From assembly GCA_010015585.1 (NCBI GenBank), contig ML975165.1: a stretch of 64,000 nt of DNA; one strand, written 5' to 3'. The DNA comes from Eremomyces bilateralis CBS 781.70. Lineage: Eukaryota. The notes under the pieces are model-generated. The model was given only the letters and a program-made list of their open reading frames with translations. It did not search any database and was not told the origin of the DNA. Positions 1 through 7,100 of the stretch are shown here, in pieces. Position 1 is the first letter of the stretch; the number at the start of each line of letters is the position of its first letter. The translations under genes and the position numbers were made by a program.

Positions 1-2150
1 CCTTCGAGTTGACGTCAGCTTGGCCCGTCTCGAGCAGCAGTTTGACGATGGCCTCGTGCCCGTTCTCAGCGGCCCACGATAGCGGTGTCCAGCCGGACCA
101 GTCCTTCGAGTCGACGTCGACTTGACCCGTCTCAAGCAGCAGCTTGATGATGGCCTCGTGCCCGTTCTTAGCGGCCCACCACAGCGGCGTCTGGCCGGAG
201 CTGTCCCTCGAGTCAACGTCGACTTGACCCGTCTCGAGCAGCAGTTTGACGATGGCCTCGTGCCCATTCTCAGCGGCCCATGACAGTGACGTCTGGCCAG
301 AGCGGTTCTCCGAGTCAATGTCGACTTGGCCCGTCTCGAGCAGCAGCTTGNNNNNNNNNNNNNNNNNNNNNNNNNNNNNNNNNNNNNNNNNNNNNNNNNN
401 NNNNNNNNNNNNNNNNNNNNNNNNNNNNNNNNNNNNNNNNNNNNNNNNNNNNNNNNNNNNNNNNNNNNNNNNNNNNNNNNNNNNNNNNNNNNNNNNNNNN
501 NNNNNNNNNNNNNNNNNNNNNNNNNNNNNNNNNNNNNNNNNNNNNNNNNNNNNNNNNNNNNNNNNNNNNNNNNNNNNNNNNNNNNNNNNNNNNNNNNNNN
601 NNNNNNNNNNNNNNNNNNNNNNNNNNNNNNNNNNNNNNNNNNNNNNNNNNNNNNNNNNNNNNNNNNNNNNNNNNNNNNNNNNNNNNNNNNNNNNNNNNNN
701 NNNNNNNNNNNNNNNNNNNNNNNNNNNNNNNNNNNNNNNNNNNNNNNNNNNNNNNNNNNNNNNNNNNNNNNNNNNNNNNNNNNNNNNNNNNNNNNNNNNN
801 NNNNNNNNNNNNNNNNNNNNNNNNNNNNNNNNNNNNNNNNNNNNNNNNNNNNNNNNNNNNNNNNNNNNNNNNNNNNNNNNNNNNNNNNNNNNNNNNNNNN
901 NNNNNNNNNNNNNNNNNNNNNNNNNNNNNNNNNNNNNNNNNNNNNNNNNNNNNNNNNNNNNNNNNNNNNNNNNNNNNNNNNNNNNNNNNNNNNNNNNNNN
1001 NNNNNNNNNNNNNNNNNNNNNNNNNNNNNNNNNNNNNNNNNNNNNNNNNNNNNNNNNNNNNNNNNNNNNNNNNNNNNNNNNNNNNNNNNNNNNNNNNNNN
1101 NNNNNNNNNNNNNNNNNNNNNNNNNNNNNNNGAGTCGACGTCGACTTGGCCCGTCTCGAGCAGCAGCTTTACGATGGCCACGTGCCCGTTCTCAGCGGCC
1201 CACCACACCGGTGTCTGGCCGGAGCGGTCCTTCGAGTCGACGTCGACTTGGCCCGTCTCAAGCAGCAGCATTATGACGGCCTCGTGTCCGTTCTCAGCGG
1301 CCCACCACAGCGGTGTCTGGCCTGAGCCGTCCTTCGAGTCGACATCGACTTGGCCCGTCTCGAGCAGCAGCTTGACGGTGGCCTCGTGCCCGTTCTCAGC
1401 CGCCCACGATAGCGGCGTCCGGCCGGACCAGTCCTTCGAGTCGATGTCGACTTGGCCCGTCTCGAGCAGCAGCTTGACGATGGCCTCGTGACCGTTCTCA
1501 GCGGCCCACCACAGCGGCGTCCGGCCGGAGCGGGTTTTCAAGTCGACGTCGACTTGACCCGTCTCGAGCAGCAGCTTGACGATGGCCTCGTGCCCGTTCT
1601 CAGCGGCCCACCACAGCGGCGTCTGGCCGGAGCTGTCCCTCGAGTCAACGTCGACCTGACCCGTCTCGAGCAGCAGTTTGACGATGGCCTCGTGTCCGTT
1701 CTCAGCGGCCCACGACAGCGGCGTCTGGCCGGATCCGTCCTTCGAGTCGACATTGACCTTGCCAGTATCGAGTAGCAGCTTGATGATGGCCTTATGCCCG
1801 TTTTTAGAGGCCCATGACAGCGGCGTCTGGCCGGAGCTGTCCTCCGAGTCAACGTCGACTTGGGCCGTCTCGAGCAACAATTTGACGATGGCCTCGTGCC
1901 CGCTCTCAGTAGCCCACGACAGCGGCGTCCGGGCAGAGCTGTCCCTCGAGTCGACGTCGACTTGGCCCGTCTCGAGCAGCATCTTGACGATACCATCGTG
2001 CCCATTTTTAGTGGCCCACGACAGCGGCGTCCGGATATAACTGCTATCCTTCGAGTTAACATTGACCTTGCCAGTATCAAGCAGCAGCTTGACGATAGCG
2101 TCATTCCCGTTCCCGGCGGCCCACGACAGCGGCGTTCGGCCGTCGTTACC
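1..2150 (-). repeat. Tandem 102-bp ankyrin-coding repeat array with high internal nucleotide identity
   Basis: Ten units are readable between 1132 and ~2150 and about three more in 1-350. The motifs GTCGACTTGGCCCGTCTCGAGCAGCAG and GCGGCCCAC recur every 102 nt. Confidence 0.95.
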
Positions 2151-3566
2151 CTTCGAGTTACCACCAACGCTTGTGGTTGAAAGCAAATGCCTAGCAATCA
2201 CTACGTGTCCTTCTTTCGCTGCTTTTAACAGAATCCCAACTCCACCATTATTGTTCCAGTTCGGGTAATTTGATTCGAAGAGATGACTGAAGATATCTTG
2301 ACACACTGTCCTAGTGCTTTTTTGGATACTGCGATTCTCCTTAGAGTTCTTCGAAAAGGTTATAAATGCTTCCATTTCTCCTCCGGTCGAGATGCGCGTC
2401 CTTCTAGCTTGGGCATGACCAATAATTGTAGAGCGTGTTATACAGAGAAACTTTAATGCTTCGGACGAAATGGTCGATCGATTGACTCTATCCAAAACAA
2501 TGAATGGAAGGAAGGGTAAATTCTCAAAAAAAATATCCAATGTCCATCGCGGAGCACTGAACACGGGGCGATTGACCCTAACTCCGAAAGAAAGGAAAGA
2601 TATAATATCCTGAACAAGGTCCTGCTCACTAATCTCGTAGCTCGCTTCAAAATTCCCGTTGGTAATATCACTCGCAATACCAAGGAAAGCATAGATCTTG
2701 TCCCTCTGTTCGGTCGTTTTACTGTCGCGAAATTTAAGGAGAAGCGCAAAGAGATCCCGTTCTAACGTCCACCAGGAGTCTTTTCTCTCTCTTAAGAATC
2801 CGGGCATAACATTTAGTAGAGGCTCGATTGGAGATATCTCAACGGATTTTTCAAGCATCCAGGAGAGAGACGAAAAAATCCCTGCTGAGACCGACTTCTT
2901 CCCACACATGATAGTAGCGCTGCGGGCAAGAGCAATTTCCTGGACGATCCAGGCTCTCTGGTACCATTGCCTTTGGAGAAGGTCTCGAAAGCCATCAACT
3001 GCTTCTTGATGATGGACATTGATTCTTAAGAGAGATTTCGATCTTAGATCCTCCTGCTGTCCTACACCAAATTTGTCAAGCACATCTGCAAGATAATTTA
3101 GGGAGTCCATGGCAATATTGGTTTGCTCGGTGTCTTCTCCAAGCCAAACGACCACCCCTTTTGCTCCTTGAAAAATGCTCTTCATCAAATTCACTTGATG
3201 GCCTCTTTCTTTATTATTATTCTGATCAATACAGATTGCATCTACCCAGAACGTTCGGGCGGAATCCTGGTTTCGAAGGGATTGTAATGCCAAGTGCAGA
3301 TTCGGTCGAATCGTCATCCTCTCGTTGTTGACAGTGATTTCGGTCGAACCTTCCCCCTCCCCCCAAACGTAAGAGAGTGCTTCATATGGCTTCTGATCAG
3401 CATCTTTAATCTCGAAATCCATGAGCTCACATCGAATCTTGCCATCAGGGTCGCCTGGAAGAAGTTCTAGAAGACGAACCACTGCCTTCTTCTCCGGCAG
3501 TGATGAGTACTGGAAACCAAAACTTTGGACTGGTGGGCTAACATCAGAGAGTACTTTCATGGACAT
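1..3566 (-). CDS. HET-domain (HET-6-like) protein with C-terminal ankyrin repeat array; 3' end runs off the window and is interrupted by an N gap
   Basis: N-terminus has HET hallmarks: RLLELLPG, YEALSYVWG, NLHLALQSLR, FWVDAICIDQ, ERGHQVNLMKSIF, VVVWLG, WYQRAWIVQEIALA. From ~2150 down there are 34-aa ankyrin units (DSKDxSGxTPLxWAAENGHEAIVKLLLETGQVDV). Positions 349..2 translate open as three more units. Confidence 0.92.
351..1131. other. Assembly gap (781 N) inside the ankyrin array
   Basis: Run of N flanked on both sides by the same repeat. Confidence 0.99.
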
Positions 3567-4124
3567 GATGTTTTACAAGCTGCTTCAGGATTGTGCTAGG
3601 CAGCTCGGTTGTTCAAGAATACTAGATTCTGACTGGCAGTGTTGCAGAACGGCATGTAGAACCAGGTTGATACCTTAGTAAGTGCCTCCCTTGCTCTGCC
3701 TCAGCCTTGTGGCCTTGGCGGTGATCGTGATCCGGCGTGGTTGGTGATTGACTCTCGTCTTTGGAATCATTATTAGGAATGAGCGTTATACTCCCACTAT
3801 TTCTCGATAATAGTCGTTATCCCGGCAATGTGGAGTGTGATTATAAATAGAAGGTAGTGAGGCAGGCCCAAGCTGCGGGCAATAGAATTTAGAAATTCCT
3901 TACCAGTTACCACTCACCGTTGCTAATCCAGGTCACCCAAAAGCAGCAAAACGGGAAGCGCAGCAAGTCCACATATTCCCTAATCATGGTATGTGGTGAA
4001 CGACGGCACATTGCGGATGAAGATTCATCATAACCCCAGACTCCAGTATCGTAACCAGAATGATGCATAATCATCGGTCTGTTATTAAATACCTATATGA
4101 AACTTAATGTTACATGTATAATAT

Positions 4125-7100
4125 CTAAGCGTAGTACCTAGGCTCATCGAAGACATGATATCTGTGACCCTTCACGCCCTCTCCACGGAACAATGCCGGA
4201 AATCGCATGTCTTCCGGAACGTGATCTTCGGATATATGCTCGTCGGAGCCCTCCGGTTGACCAACAACGAACTTCCCAACCTGCACATCATTAGCATGCG
4301 TTACGGAAAAAGATGCTGCATGTGAAAAGGGGGATTAAATGACAGCGTACCTGCAACTCGGTATCGGTAATCGTCCCTCGACTCAGTCGAGCATACCCAA
4401 TCCTCTTCAACCCCTTATACAACACATACTCGCACCACCGATCCCAATCCGTATGATCAATATCCCTCATGCCACTTACCTCCCCGACATACGTGTTATA
4501 GTTCCCCTGCTTTGGCGTGGTAACCAGATAACTCAGTAAGATCACCGGACGCGTCGTCACCGAGCCCATCAAGTTCGATAGGTACTCGGTCTGCAATCGC
4601 CGGTCTTCCGGGTCCTCTTCTTGCCCGGAATGGAATACCACCACATCGACCAGCTCCCCGTACGCATCGAGCGTGGCGTGGATGGCGGGGGCTAATTCAC
4701 CGACAGGGCTAGGTAGGAGGTGATGCGTGCTGTTGACGATGGGGAACTTGCTGAGAAGTGCGGCACCCCATGTGTGTTTATCAGGGCCCGGGCCGTAATC
4801 CACGTACATGCCGAGCTCTTCGGCGAGATACTGCGTGGTATCGCGGTTGCCCATGATGACCCGCTGGAGATCCGACTCGAGCAGTCCAATAACGTCGAGT
4901 TCCATGTTTTTAAGCAGGTATGCCATGCGGCGAGACGAATCCCACATGTCGTTGTCGAGAGAGAAATGGACGGTCCAGATACCAGCGGTCAGGACATTGG
5001 AGTCGGGATGGTAAGGAGTGTAGTCGTACGTTGGGAAACGGAGGTACGCGACCGCGATCGCAAGGAGCTGCAAACCACCCAGGATATAGATGTAGAAACC
5101 GCGCTGCCTTCGTGCTGTCGGAGACGTCTGCGCAGGCTTTTTTGGCTTCTTTGAAGGTGCTGCAGCACGTGCGGTGGCCTCGTAGACTCCGGCCCCGATG
5201 CAGAGCATGGTGACCGCCACGACCCAATCCGTGTGCTCGCGCATCAACGGTCCGCCTGGAACGAACGCGTAGGCCACGACCCAGACGTGGGCGAGGACAA
5301 GGATATTGTAGATCAAGAAGCCGAACCCGAAGGTAGATGCGTATGCCCTTTGGTGGACGGCAGACCGAATCAAGACGGGCGCAATGGCCATGATATAGGT
5401 TGCAATAGCCAGTGCACCGTAGTACCCAGTCCAGTCATCGAATGCAACCAATGCAGCTGCACCAATGGATCCAATCCCGTAGAAGGTCCAGCTTCGCGCG
5501 ATACCGGGTACCATCACCCCAAATAGCAGTCCCACCCCCATCGCGATGATCGTGTAGGCACCATGTGGAGATGCCAAGGGGCCATTGACCGGATAACCGC
5601 TCCAGACCCAGAGGGTCATCGTGCTGGAATCCGATAGGAGGGAGTGCATCGAAAACATGACTCCCGCAAAGCCGAGTCCAGCCAATGCGGGGGAACCGGG
5701 CTTTCCCCCAGTTCGCGGCGGGACCGGATAGAATTTGTCCGAAGTGTCGTCCCTTGTGGAACGCAGGATGGAAAGAACGGCGAATAGGAGGCCAATTTTG
5801 TTCCAGCCACCGTTAGTCTCGTTGACAACAGGCCAAATGGGGTTGTTCGTGTGCCATGCGAATTTCGCAATGCTAGACATTATCAGGCCGAGGCAGAATG
5901 CGGAGATGCGCGATTCAAGACGGTATGCAGGCTTGCTTTCAGCGGCGCCAAAGGTACAGACCCAGGCAAGGCAAGACATACCGACGCCAAATGCAACGGC
6001 AAAGAGTCGGTATGTGGGATCTTTGAGCAGCCAAGCTAGCAGGCCGGATAAAGAGAGAAGATGGAGGACGCGCACGTTGCGGAAGAAGAGGTTTCGAATG
6101 GCTCTCGGACCAAGGATGTATGGAGTCAGAGTACAGACGATAAAGGCTTCGAAACCAGAGATACCCATGTGCCACAATGGGAAGTACCAAACGCAAAGTC
6201 CAAGCGAGGTCAACATTGACCAGAATACAAACTGTAACCGATGTAAGCTTCATTTATTGACAAGATGGAAAGTACATACCCCATTGTAAACATCTGCAGC
6301 AGCATCGAAGGCTACGGGCCAGGAAAAACCAGCAGATATGACCTGGGCAGCCGGTTTGGCTTTCCTATATATCTACTCAGCATAGGATCGAGGGGAATGG
6401 GGAGAAAGGCTTACTGCTTCTCCAGAACAGCATCCGCAAGGCGGTTGTCGGCACTGTGGAACCAAAGCGCGTTATTAAATTTCCTTTCATTGCTATTTAC
6501 TTCGGTAGCCATGGAACATACCCTCTTGTAATGCCTCGGATATCTTTGACAACGACCTCAACGCCGTCAAAATCCAGCATTGTGACGGCATCGAATCCAA
6601 CGTCAAGTAAGACAAGCGCCCACTCAAAGAAGGCATAGATCGTATACGCTGAAGCAAAAGTCAGTATCTCTCAATAACGAATCGATCTGGCGTGATCGCT
6701 TTACCTCCTGCCACCTTATGCACTTTATGCTGAATGAAGAAGTATATCAGGGGTACAATCGTCCCGAAGAACGCGGTCGCGAACCGCTTCCTCCACCTGA
6801 TAGCTTGAGGGTTTTGCGGACTGAGAGCTAGGCAACCCAAAGTCCACGGCACCGTAGCGACCAAATACGAGATCATGAAGATATCGTGCCAATTGTGATC
6901 ATCGGTAGACGTCACGTATGTCCACCCGCCGCACGTAAGGGTTCTGAAAATGCCCACTCCGGCCACGAAGTTCGAAAGGGATGAGTTTGGTCGTTTGGTC
7001 AGGACGTACCAGAGCGCTACGAGCGCGAATCGGGGCCCTGAATCCGGTTAGATATGCCAGAATTCGTATCGTAAACCGCTATTACCGGAGGTTATGGCAA

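What the first reader, a model, noticed from the sequence alone, without database searches (positions are those of the whole stretch)
1..3566. NOD-less HET-ankyrin protein with a hypervariable repeat sensor: candidate minimal fungal immune / allorecognition receptor
Seen: a HET domain, a ~200-aa linker with no Walker-A/NACHT/NB-ARC motif, then at least 13 readable near-identical ankyrin repeats (about 20 if the 781-N gap is roughly the right size). The scaffold is nearly invariant. Variation concentrates in DSKD[x]SG[x]TPL[x]W: S/G/R/W, Q/R/W and S/W, plus E/K in AA[x]NG. Known: HET is a cell-death effector domain. In fungal NLRs such as Podospora HNWD, highly conserved repeats with a few hypervariable codons set ligand specificity. 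In ankyrins, the beta-hairpin and first helix form the binding face. Inference: this is a two-part effector+sensor receptor that diversifies by repeat shuffling without the usual nucleotide-binding switch.
Basis: partly seen in the sequence, partly recalled or inferred. Interest (0 to 1): 0.72.

Follow-up and report, generated by a model that had tools for sequence, protein, structure and literature searches.

The report
Ordinary fungal HET-ankyrin protein without NOD
This is a real fungal gene that joins a cell-death (HET) domain directly to a long run of very similar ankyrin repeats with no nucleotide-binding switch, but this design is common in ascomycetes and was already noted in print, so it is a plausible yet untested immune-type sensor, not a new kind.

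Summary
A minus-strand ORF starts at 3566 and encodes a HET domain (Pfam E 2e-33). It has no NACHT/NB-ARC and no Walker A. At least 14 readable 34-aa ankyrin repeats run through a 781-N gap and off the window.

Three points need correction.
- The "~200-aa linker" is mostly a conserved, confidently folded extension of the HET module (to about residue 365). Only about 75 residues form a spacer.
- The repeats are not near-identical. The core units share 84% aa and 88% nt identity. Amino-acid changes do cluster on the binding face, but dN/dS stays below 1.
- The design is not new. By my reading of the Pfam column, 73 of the 120 best HET relatives are HET+ANK and none has a NOD. [quoted passage not shown] Podospora BH1 is a proven non-NLR HET receptor.

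The ankyrin units are of the type found in fungal NLRs: 101 of the 120 best array matches carry NOD-type domains.

Verdict: a new member of a known kind. A sensor-plus-killer role is likely but untested.

The parts
2..3566 (-). Readable coding sequence of the HET-ankyrin gene. The ATG is at 3566; the frame is interrupted by the N gap and still open at the window's first base, so the C-terminus is unknown.
   Evidence: ORF list and translations
2937..3386 (-). Pfam HET domain PF06985, residues 61-210
   Evidence: hmmscan E 2.3e-33, 116 bits against a cut-off of 22.5, profile positions 1-146 of 146
2472..3509 (-). Whole conserved, folded HET-family module, residues about 20-365: the HET core plus a helical extension shared with HET-only and HET-DUF7104 relatives
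   Evidence: 34 invariant columns from R31 to Y310 in 51 sequences. AlphaFold2 block pLDDT is mostly 81-97, with a dip to 67-78 at residues 171-190. The domain-only model has pLDDT 88.9 and pTM 0.88.
2247..2471 (-). Spacer, residues 366-440: predicted helices of low confidence, no Pfam match
   Evidence: Block pLDDT 47-72; no family at E<=1
2160..2246 (-). Degenerate first (cap-like) ankyrin repeat, residues 441-469
   Evidence: Helix pair 441-451 / 455-464 in the model; sequence read
1132..2159 (-). Ten 34-aa ankyrin units (residues 470-810) and the first residue of the next. The first four are more diverged; the last six belong to the conserved core.
   Evidence: TRF period 102, 9.9 copies; unit alignment; 10 Ank stretches in Pfam
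351..1131 (.). Assembly gap of 781 N inside the array, about 7.6 units by nominal size; neither the frame nor the repeat register is exactly kept
   Evidence: N run located; sequence read
2..350 (-). Three further full ankyrin units with partial units on both sides; the array runs off the window
   Evidence: Translation; TRF 3.4 copies; Pfam Ank, 3 stretches

Best explanation
This is a member of the widespread ascomycete family of non-NLR HET-domain proteins that carry a tandem-repeat array directly behind the HET module. Residues about 20-365 form the HET module: a TIR-like core plus a family-specific helical extension. A spacer of about 75 residues follows. Then comes an open-ended ankyrin solenoid of at least 14, and probably more than 20, 34-aa repeats of the type also used by fungal NACHT-ankyrin receptors.

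The most likely working is a one-chain sensor and effector for regulated cell death. The concave face of the ankyrin solenoid, where the variable residues sit, binds a protein ligand of self or foreign origin. Binding frees or clusters the HET module, which then triggers cell death. Podospora BH1 does this with a lectin-fold sensor instead of repeats and without any nucleotide-binding switch.

Shown here: the domain order, the lack of a NOD within the window, the fold confidence, the family relations and the placing of the variation. Inferred: ligand binding, autoinhibition or clustering, cell death, and any role in allorecognition as opposed to defence.
For: Architecture: HET at 61-210, Ank from about 445, no NACHT/NB-ARC. 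No Walker A in the query or in any of the 120 best HET relatives.

Relatives: by my reading of the Pfam column, the 120 best hits split into 73 HET+ANK, 32 HET+DUF7104 (a 31-aa repeat) and 15 HET only. None carries PF05729, PF00931 or PF24883. A re-scan of the query and 50 chosen hits gave HET in 51/51, Ank in 30, DUF7104 in 14 and TPR in 1. The query keeps all 34 family-invariant columns.

Fold: of the 50 best rows of the all-against-representatives structure search with the HET-only model, about 17 are TIR, ThsB or SEFIR domains and about 9 are nucleoside 2-deoxyribosyltransferase-like. The best Z is only 5.1, and no P-loop NTPase is listed.

Sensor: a binding-face codon set fixed beforehand has pN 0.263 against 0.106 for the rest. 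Only 54 of 20000 random 6-codon sets reach that value. In the nine core units, five codons hold 57.5% of the pairwise non-synonymous differences. The scaffold is under purifying selection, with dN/dS 0.14.

The array type is shared with NLRs: 101 of the 120 best array matches carry NACHT-type families by my reading, and 66 of 120 have a strict Walker A.

Precedent: in BH1 (HET + lectin fold, non-NLR) the C-terminal domain sets specificity (passages of PMC10890737). HET alone is reported as sufficient for cell death (passages of PMC12881547).
Against: No function was tested. dN/dS is below 1 in every codon class, so diversifying selection is not shown. Internal conservation is 84.2% aa between neighbouring units over 205 residues, just under the 85% cut-off that Dyrka et al. 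used. dS between core units is about 0.29, so homogenisation is not recent.

The gene sits beside housekeeping genes: CWH43-like, COG5, PIP5K, eIF2A, PEX6. In the Aspergilli the HET+Ankyrin subfamily was described as vertically inherited, which fits a conserved role at least as well as an arms race. Only 4 of 132 HET genes of P. anserina are incompatibility genes. Most HET genes tested in A. oryzae gave no incompatibility (passage citing Mori 2019).

The TIR likeness rests on weak Z scores, and Foldseek found nothing at E<=0.001. The query's HET module sits on a very long branch, 1.54 against a median of 0.17. The C-terminus is outside the window.
Confidence: 0.6

Rival explanations
1. It is a conserved non-immune protein. 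The ankyrin solenoid is a scaffold or adaptor for a fixed cellular partner. The HET module has a regulatory or enzymatic role unrelated to nonself recognition. The variable positions are simply the least constrained surface residues.
For: dN/dS is below 1 in all codon classes. The neighbours are housekeeping genes. The HET+Ankyrin subfamily is reported as vertically inherited in the Aspergilli. Most HET-domain genes are not incompatibility genes.
Against: The units are 84% identical to each other but only 42-70% identical to the best foreign arrays, as expected for arrays that expand or homogenise within a lineage. The array type is the one used by NLRs. Replacement changes are concentrated on binding-face codons fixed beforehand (54 of 20000 random sets). 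The HET clade swaps array type (ANK, DUF7104, TPR) at least 5 times on the tree.
Confidence: 0.2
2. It is not NOD-independent in practice. It works in trans with a separate NLR or other partner encoded elsewhere, as a sensor, decoy or guardee, or it serves mainly as a store of repeat cassettes that exchange with NLR arrays in the same genome.
For: The ankyrin units are of NLR type: 101 of the 120 best array matches have NOD-type families. Repeat exchange between genes is documented for Podospora HIC repeats (passages of PMC13449251). The DNA run X1 holds several contigs 7-10% diverged from the HET part beside exact ones, so related copies exist in that sample. BH1 itself needs a second gene product, BP.
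Against: No NLR gene lies in the 64-kb window (18 largest ORFs scanned). No second copy of the repeat exists elsewhere in the window. The genome could not be searched.
Confidence: 0.12
3. It is a decaying relic or an assembly artefact: a former HET-NACHT-ANK receptor that lost its NOD, or a HET gene wrongly joined to a foreign ankyrin array across a badly assembled repeat.
For: There is an estimated gap inside the array, and neither frame nor register is kept across it. No 100% match to this protein appeared in the protein search, so it seems not to be annotated at this length. The HET branch is long.
Against: The frame is open for 811 codons from the ATG through HET, spacer and ten repeats with no gap at the junction. 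All 34 family-invariant residues are kept. The same architecture occurs in 73 of 120 relatives. The closest HET relatives are non-NLR, whereas the HET domains of HET-NPHP3_N-ANK proteins match Pfam HET far more weakly, E 1e-11 to 1e-13. An exact 1309-base contig of run X2 covers 2301-3608.
Confidence: 0.05

Closest known systems
[quoted passage not shown] 2005, PMC1325252, passage seen)
   Same: An N-terminal HET module is followed directly by ankyrin repeats with no NACHT/NB-ARC. 73 of the 120 best HET relatives have this design. Examples with long arrays are three Botrytis cinerea proteins of 1057-1098 aa and one each from Sordaria macrospora, Gaeumannomyces and Leptodophora.
   Different: The HET module is only 30-41% identical to any of them and sits on a long branch. 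The spacer is shorter than in the B. cinerea proteins: HET ends at 184 and the first repeat starts near 553 there, against 210 and 441 here.
Podospora anserina BH1 (het-B): non-NLR HET + HAD + lectin-fold protein (Clave et al. 2024, PMC10890737, passages seen)
   Same: It has a HET cell-death module at the N-terminus and a variable C-terminal recognition domain, with no NOD. It is the functional precedent for a two-part effector plus sensor.
   Different: BH1 has a beta-rich HET-associated domain and a lectin fold. Here the extension is helical and the sensor is a repeat solenoid. BH1 specificity and its partner BP are shown by genetics; nothing has been shown here.
Fungal NLRs with highly internally conserved ANK repeats (PNP_UDP/NACHT/ANK Pa_3_8560 and HET-NACHT-WD HNWD genes; Dyrka et al. 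2014, PMC4986451, abstract, section 13 and passages seen)
   Same: The 33-34-aa ankyrin unit type is the same, and array matches are 42-70% identical. Variation falls on the hairpin/loop and inner helix. The effector is a HET domain.
   Different: There is no NACHT/NB-ARC and no Walker A. Internal conservation is just under their 85% cut-off. Positive selection and repeat-number polymorphism are not shown.
SARM1-type TIR enzymes held in check by a helical-repeat domain (recalled knowledge; only the SARM1 TIR chain 9hq0_A appears)
   Same: A TIR-like effector is regulated by a helical repeat domain without an NTPase switch. This is a model for how a NOD-less HET-repeat protein could be autoinhibited.
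   Different: The domain order is reversed and a SAM oligomeriser is present in SARM1. The likeness of HET to TIR is weak here: Z 4.6, rmsd 3.1, 98 aligned.

Membership tests
HET domain proteins (Pfam PF06985) | Match to the HET profile above the curated cut-off, full length | tested here: met
   116 bits against a cut-off of 22.5, E 2.3e-33, profile 1-146 of 146, residues 61-210
HET domain proteins (Pfam PF06985) | Family-invariant residues kept (WxDAxCIDQ block, E120, Q124, WxxRxWxxQE block and others) | tested here: met
   34 invariant columns in 51 sequences, all present in the query, R31 to Y310; 31 invariant columns in 66 sequences
HET domain proteins (Pfam PF06985) | TIR-like fold (remote homology proposed by Dyrka et al. 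2014) | tested here: inconclusive
   In the VIA-align wide search of the HET-only model, about 17 of 50 rows are TIR/ThsB/SEFIR and about 9 are deoxyribosyltransferase-like, but the best Z is 5.1 (rmsd 3.4-4.3, 99-104 aligned). Foldseek gave 0 hits at E<=0.001. A profile against PDB sequences found only ankyrin chains among the 60 best shown.
HET domain proteins (Pfam PF06985) | Induces cell death when expressed | not testable with these tools
   Needs expression of residues 1-365 in a fungal model
Fungal NOD-like receptors (STAND NTPases) | Central NACHT or NB-ARC domain with a Walker A P-loop | tested here: not met
   No such Pfam family at E<=1. No GxxxxGK[ST] motif or looser forms. After residue 211 the model has two short strands and then only helices. 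Holds for the window only; the C-terminus lies outside it.
Fungal NOD-like receptors (STAND NTPases) | N-terminal effector and C-terminal superstructure-forming repeats | tested here: met
   HET at the N-terminus, ANK array at the C-terminal side
Highly internally conserved (HIC) repeats as defined by Dyrka et al. 2014 | [quoted passage not shown] | tested here: inconclusive
   Identity between neighbouring units is 84.2% over residues 607-811 (205 aa). The core-unit mean is 83.8%, range 76-94%. Their exact procedure was not reproduced.
Highly internally conserved (HIC) repeats as defined by Dyrka et al. 2014 | Positive selection at binding-face codons | tested here: not met
   dN/dS is 0.39-0.41 at face codons fixed beforehand and 0.64-0.89 at codons chosen afterwards. 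The rest gives 0.14-0.30. The face codons do have an excess of replacements (54 of 20000 and 355 of 20000 random sets). One allele only, Nei-Gojobori counts.
Highly internally conserved (HIC) repeats as defined by Dyrka et al. 2014 | Repeat-number polymorphism between isolates and exchange between paralogues | not testable with these tools
   Only short contigs of public runs were available. Long reads of several isolates are needed.
BH1-type non-NLR HET receptors (Clave et al. 2024) | HET followed by the beta-rich HET-associated domain (HAD) and a lectin fold | tested here: not met
   The extension after the HET core is helical and the C-terminal domain is ankyrin
HET + Ankyrin architecture (non-NLR) | HET module and ankyrin repeats in one reading frame with no NOD, shared with the nearest HET relatives | tested here: met
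   One open frame of 811 codons. 73 of 120 nearest relatives are HET+ANK by the Pfam column, and 30 of 50 were re-scanned as such.

The most novel reading that the evidence does not exclude
HET-repeat proteins (ANK here; 31-aa DUF7104 repeats or TPR in sister proteins) would form a distinct, widespread class of fungal receptors that work without a NOD. Their sensor arrays would come from the same repeat pool as those of NLRs. In this genome the gene would be one of several recently diverged copies that diversify by exchanging units, giving a simple system for asking how a TIR-like effector is switched on without an NTPase.
Probability: 0.25. Interest if true: 0.6.

Novelty: new member of a known kind. 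Interest (0 to 1): 0.3.

Why it matters
Fungal immunity research has centred on NLRs. The much larger set of HET-domain genes is mostly unexplained: 132 in P. anserina, of which 4 have a known role. This gene is a clean example of a HET module wired directly to an NLR-type repeat sensor. It shows that the whole HET clade is usually fused to some repeat array (ANK, DUF7104 or TPR). If such proteins signal on their own, they would show how a TIR-like death domain can be controlled without a nucleotide switch. As it stands, the gene adds one more member to a known architecture and gives no new mechanism.

Tried and rejected
- Whole-genome search: no genome is held for this window. Paralogues, NLR neighbours beyond the window and the gene's C-terminus could not be examined.
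- Cryptic NTPase in the linker: rejected. No P-loop NTPase was listed among the 50 best rows of either wide structure search. That absence alone proves nothing.
- Foldseek against PDB with both models: 0 matches at E<=0.001.
- Wide search with the 470-residue model: only generic helical matches on residues 314-470, best Z 7.4.
- A1 profile against PDB sequences: only ankyrin chains among the 60 best of 623 matches.
- Second copy of the repeat elsewhere in the window: none. All 7 matches lie in the array.
- Expression: no listed run is on record as RNA. Run X2 is only guessed to be RNA. Its exact contig ends at 3608, the intergenic stretch 3682-4086 is almost uncovered, and the neighbouring gene is covered. 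This is a weak hint from one study, not evidence.
- Runs X4 and X5 hold next to nothing of the gene. This is no proof of absence in other isolates.
- Tree of the HET module (119 rows; P0020 and P0099 were dropped because my motif anchor missed them; FastTree only). The query's place is unresolved and on a long branch, so I draw no sister group from it.
- Exact DARPin library positions: the paper read (PMC8683736, passages) does not list them. The set 2, 3, 5, 13, 14, 33 and its mapping onto this unit are recalled.
- Print search for a treatment of NOD-less HET-ankyrin receptors (and 'DUF7104'): only the 2005 remark was found. Subscription journals are not covered.
- Earlier notes of this scan: none on this genome. 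Two notes on viral ankyrin arrays did not bear on this gene.
Full report
**Observation.** The feature is real. On the minus strand an ATG at 3566 opens a frame that stays open for 811 codons down to the edge of a 781-N gap at 1132. The frame resumes at 349 and is still open at the first base of the window (116 codons). Pfam places a full-length HET domain at residues 61-210 (E 2.3e-33). It places ankyrin families from about residue 445 to the end. No NACHT, NB-ARC or other NTPase family appears even at E<=1.

Tandem Repeats Finder gives a 102-nt period, with 9.9 copies before the gap and 3.4 after it, at 83-86% matches. I read 13 full 34-aa units, a degenerate cap-like first repeat (residues 441-469) and partial units at the gap and window edges. 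The gap would need 63+102k bases to keep the repeat register. Since 781 = 63+7x102+4, it is an estimated gap of about 7.6 units. About 22 repeats therefore lie inside the window, and the true end of the gene is unknown.

**The 'linker'.** I aligned the first 470 residues with 50 relatives chosen from the 120 best hits. This gives 34 invariant columns running from R31 to Y310, and nearly invariant ones to F324. An AlphaFold2 model of residues 1-470 (pLDDT 82, pTM 0.79) is confident from about residue 20 to about 365. Only residues 366-440 fold with low confidence, and those are helices. A model of residues 15-345 alone reaches pLDDT 88.9 and pTM 0.88.

After residue 211 the models have two short strands and then only helices, so there is no room for a beta-alpha-beta P-loop domain. 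No Walker A motif is present. The true spacer is about 75 residues. The refuting case 'cryptic NTPase in the linker' is excluded. 'Beyond the window edge' cannot be excluded formally, but repeats lie C-terminal to the NOD in NLRs, and no HET-ANK relative carries an NTPase.

**Fold of the HET module.**
- Foldseek found nothing at E<=0.001 with either model.
- A sequence profile against PDB chains listed only ankyrin proteins among the 60 rows shown.
- The all-against-representatives search with the HET-only model gave weak scores, best Z 5.1. Still, about 17 of its 50 rows are TIR, ThsB or SEFIR domains (SpbK, IL-1RAcPb, SARM1, MyD88, MAL, TIRAP and others). About 9 more are nucleoside 2-deoxyribosyltransferase-like.
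- This agrees with the published remote HET-TIR homology but does not prove it.

**Relatives of the HET module.** The search with residues 1-445 found 1418 proteins at E<=0.001 among 8000 scored. The best 120 are 33-42% identical. By my reading of the precomputed Pfam column:
- 73 of the 120 are HET+ANK.
- 32 are HET+DUF7104 without ANK.
- 15 are HET only.
- None carries NACHT (PF05729), NB-ARC (PF00931) or NPHP3_N (PF24883).
- Six of the 73 carry both DUF7104 and ANK.

None of the 120 has a strict Walker A. A fresh Pfam scan of the query and 50 of them gave HET in 51/51, Ank in 30, DUF7104 in 14 and TPR in 1.

DUF7104 turns out to be a 31-residue tandem repeat. It has 8 copies at E 4e-114 in P0054, and those copies are very similar to one another. 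This HET clade is therefore typically fused directly to one or another repeat array.

On a FastTree of the HET module, array type is clustered: 10 changes against 41 in shuffles. Even so, at least 5 changes are forced by well-supported branches. The tree has 119 rows; two were dropped because my anchor motif missed them. The query sits on a very long branch (1.54 against a median of 0.17), and its sister group is unresolved.

**Relatives of the array.** The search with residues 470-811 returned 7973 hits among 8000 scored. The best 120 are 42-70% identical. By my reading, 101 of the 120 carry NOD-type families (PF05729, PF24883, PF13401, PF13191 or the associated winged helix PF22939). A strict Walker A is present in 66 of 120.

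Fifteen of the 120 carry HET. A Pfam re-scan of these 15 shows:
- 10 are HET+ANK with no NOD. Eight have HET first and two have ANK first.
- 5 are HET-NPHP3_N-ANK receptors, whose HET matches are much weaker, E 1e-11 to 1e-13.

So the units are the type used by fungal NLRs, while the HET module belongs to a non-NLR clade.

**Variation between units.** The nine core units are 81-97% identical in DNA (mean 88%) and 76-94% in protein (mean 84%). Identity between neighbouring units is 84.2% over 205 residues. That is just below the 85%-over-100-aa cut-off of Dyrka et al..

In the core units, five codons (unit positions 5, 8, 4, 3, 12) hold 57.5% of all pairwise replacement differences.

To avoid choosing sites after the fact, I used the positions randomised in designed ankyrin libraries. 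These are recalled as 2, 3, 5, 13, 14 and 33, which map to unit positions 5, 6, 8, 16, 17 and 3 here.
- All 13 units: their pN is 0.263 against 0.106 for the rest. Only 54 of 20000 random six-codon sets reach that value.
- Core units: 0.179 against 0.058, reached by 355 of 20000 random sets.

dN/dS nevertheless never exceeds 1. The rest of the unit gives 0.14-0.30. dS between core units is about 0.29.

The data show a constrained scaffold with a tolerant or diversifying binding face. They do not show positive selection. The units resemble each other more than any foreign array (84% against at most 70%). That fits expansion or homogenisation within the lineage.

**Surroundings and source.** The 18 largest other ORFs of the window include CWH43-like (PGAP2IP), COG5, two AAA proteins (one of them PEX6), UTP6, PIP5K, eIF2A, a Sec7 exchange factor and SPT2. 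None is an NLR or HET gene. The CWH43-like product is 100% identical over 99% of its length to a protein that NCBI names as from Eremomyces bilateralis CBS 781.70, a dothideomycete. No 100% match to the HET-ankyrin protein itself appeared. It seems not to be annotated at this length, perhaps because of the gap.

**Public reads.** Three runs hold most of the HET part.
- In DNA run X1, contigs 7-10% diverged from the window cover 2049-3275 beside exact ones. Summed depth there is about 500-1640 against 221 in the single-copy flank. This points to several diverged copies of the HET part in that sample. Summed contig depth is not a copy number.
- Run X2, only guessed to be RNA, has an exact 1309-base contig over 2301-3608. 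That contig ends 42 bases upstream of the ATG, with almost no cover of the intergenic stretch. This is a weak hint of transcription from a single study.

**Literature.**
- Fedorova et al. [quoted passage not shown]
- Dyrka et al. 2014 (PMC4986451; abstract, section 13 and passages) describe highly conserved ANK repeats in NLRs, with selected sites on the concave face. They note that NLR-like proteins account for only 60-70% of such repeats in dikarya.
- Clave et al. 2024 (PMC10890737, passages) show that BH1 works in incompatibility without a NOD. BH1 combines HET, a beta-rich HET-associated domain and a lectin fold, and its C-terminal domain sets specificity. They state that HET occurs 132 times in P. 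anserina with 4 known het genes.
- A 2025 review (PMC12881547, passages) gives the HET domain as about 220-240 aa and sufficient for cell death.
- Searches for a dedicated treatment of NOD-less HET-ankyrin receptors and for DUF7104 found nothing further. Subscription journals are not covered.

**Interpretation.** The gene is an ordinary member of a large, known architecture. It remains inference.

I put 0.6 on this reading. The rivals get 0.2 for a conserved non-immune role, 0.12 for dependence on a partner or NLR in trans, and 0.05 for a relic or artefact.

What is mildly new is the general picture: this HET clade is nearly always fused to some repeat array, and the ankyrin units are of NLR type. 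The hint of several diverged copies in the same sample is also new.

Noticed in passing
window 2049-3479 (HET part), run X1: Beside exact contigs, the DNA run holds contigs of about 200 bases that are 7-10% diverged from the HET and spacer region. Summed depth is about 500-1640 against 221 in the flank. This suggests several recently diverged copies (paralogues or alleles) of this gene in the sample.
   Followed up: partly
relatives P0054, P0115, P0047, P0075: Pfam DUF7104 is a 31-residue tandem repeat (unit roughly VKVTEEVVKAAAGNTxSGKEVMALLLEQRGGE in P0054). It follows the same HET module in 32 of the 120 nearest relatives, and in 6 more together with ankyrin repeats. In P0054 its copies are nearly identical with one variable spot. 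No paper mentions it.
   Followed up: partly
window 2301-3608 and 3682-4086, run X2: An exact contig stops 42 bases upstream of the ATG. The intergenic stretch is almost uncovered, while the neighbouring CWH43-like gene is deeply covered. This looks like a transcript, but the run is only guessed to be RNA.
   Followed up: no
window 4342-6249, minus strand: The CWH43-like (PGAP2IP) ORF is 100% identical to the protein NCBI names from Eremomyces bilateralis CBS 781.70. The HET-ankyrin protein itself had no identical database entry of 446-1420 aa, so it is probably unannotated or mis-modelled because of the gap.
   Followed up: partly
relatives P0213 and P0227: Two proteins of about 1290 aa have the reverse order: ankyrin repeats first (from about residue 150) and HET at about 642-800. 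They may be true ANK-HET proteins or fused gene models.
   Followed up: no
window 3566..2472 (HET module), tree: The query's HET module lies on a branch about nine times the median length (1.54 against 0.17), although it keeps every family-invariant residue. This reflects either fast evolution or a poorly sampled lineage.
   Followed up: no
relative P0035: One relative from Cladophialophora carries HET, ankyrin and TPR repeats in one 1002-aa protein. This third array type occurs on the same HET clade.
   Followed up: no
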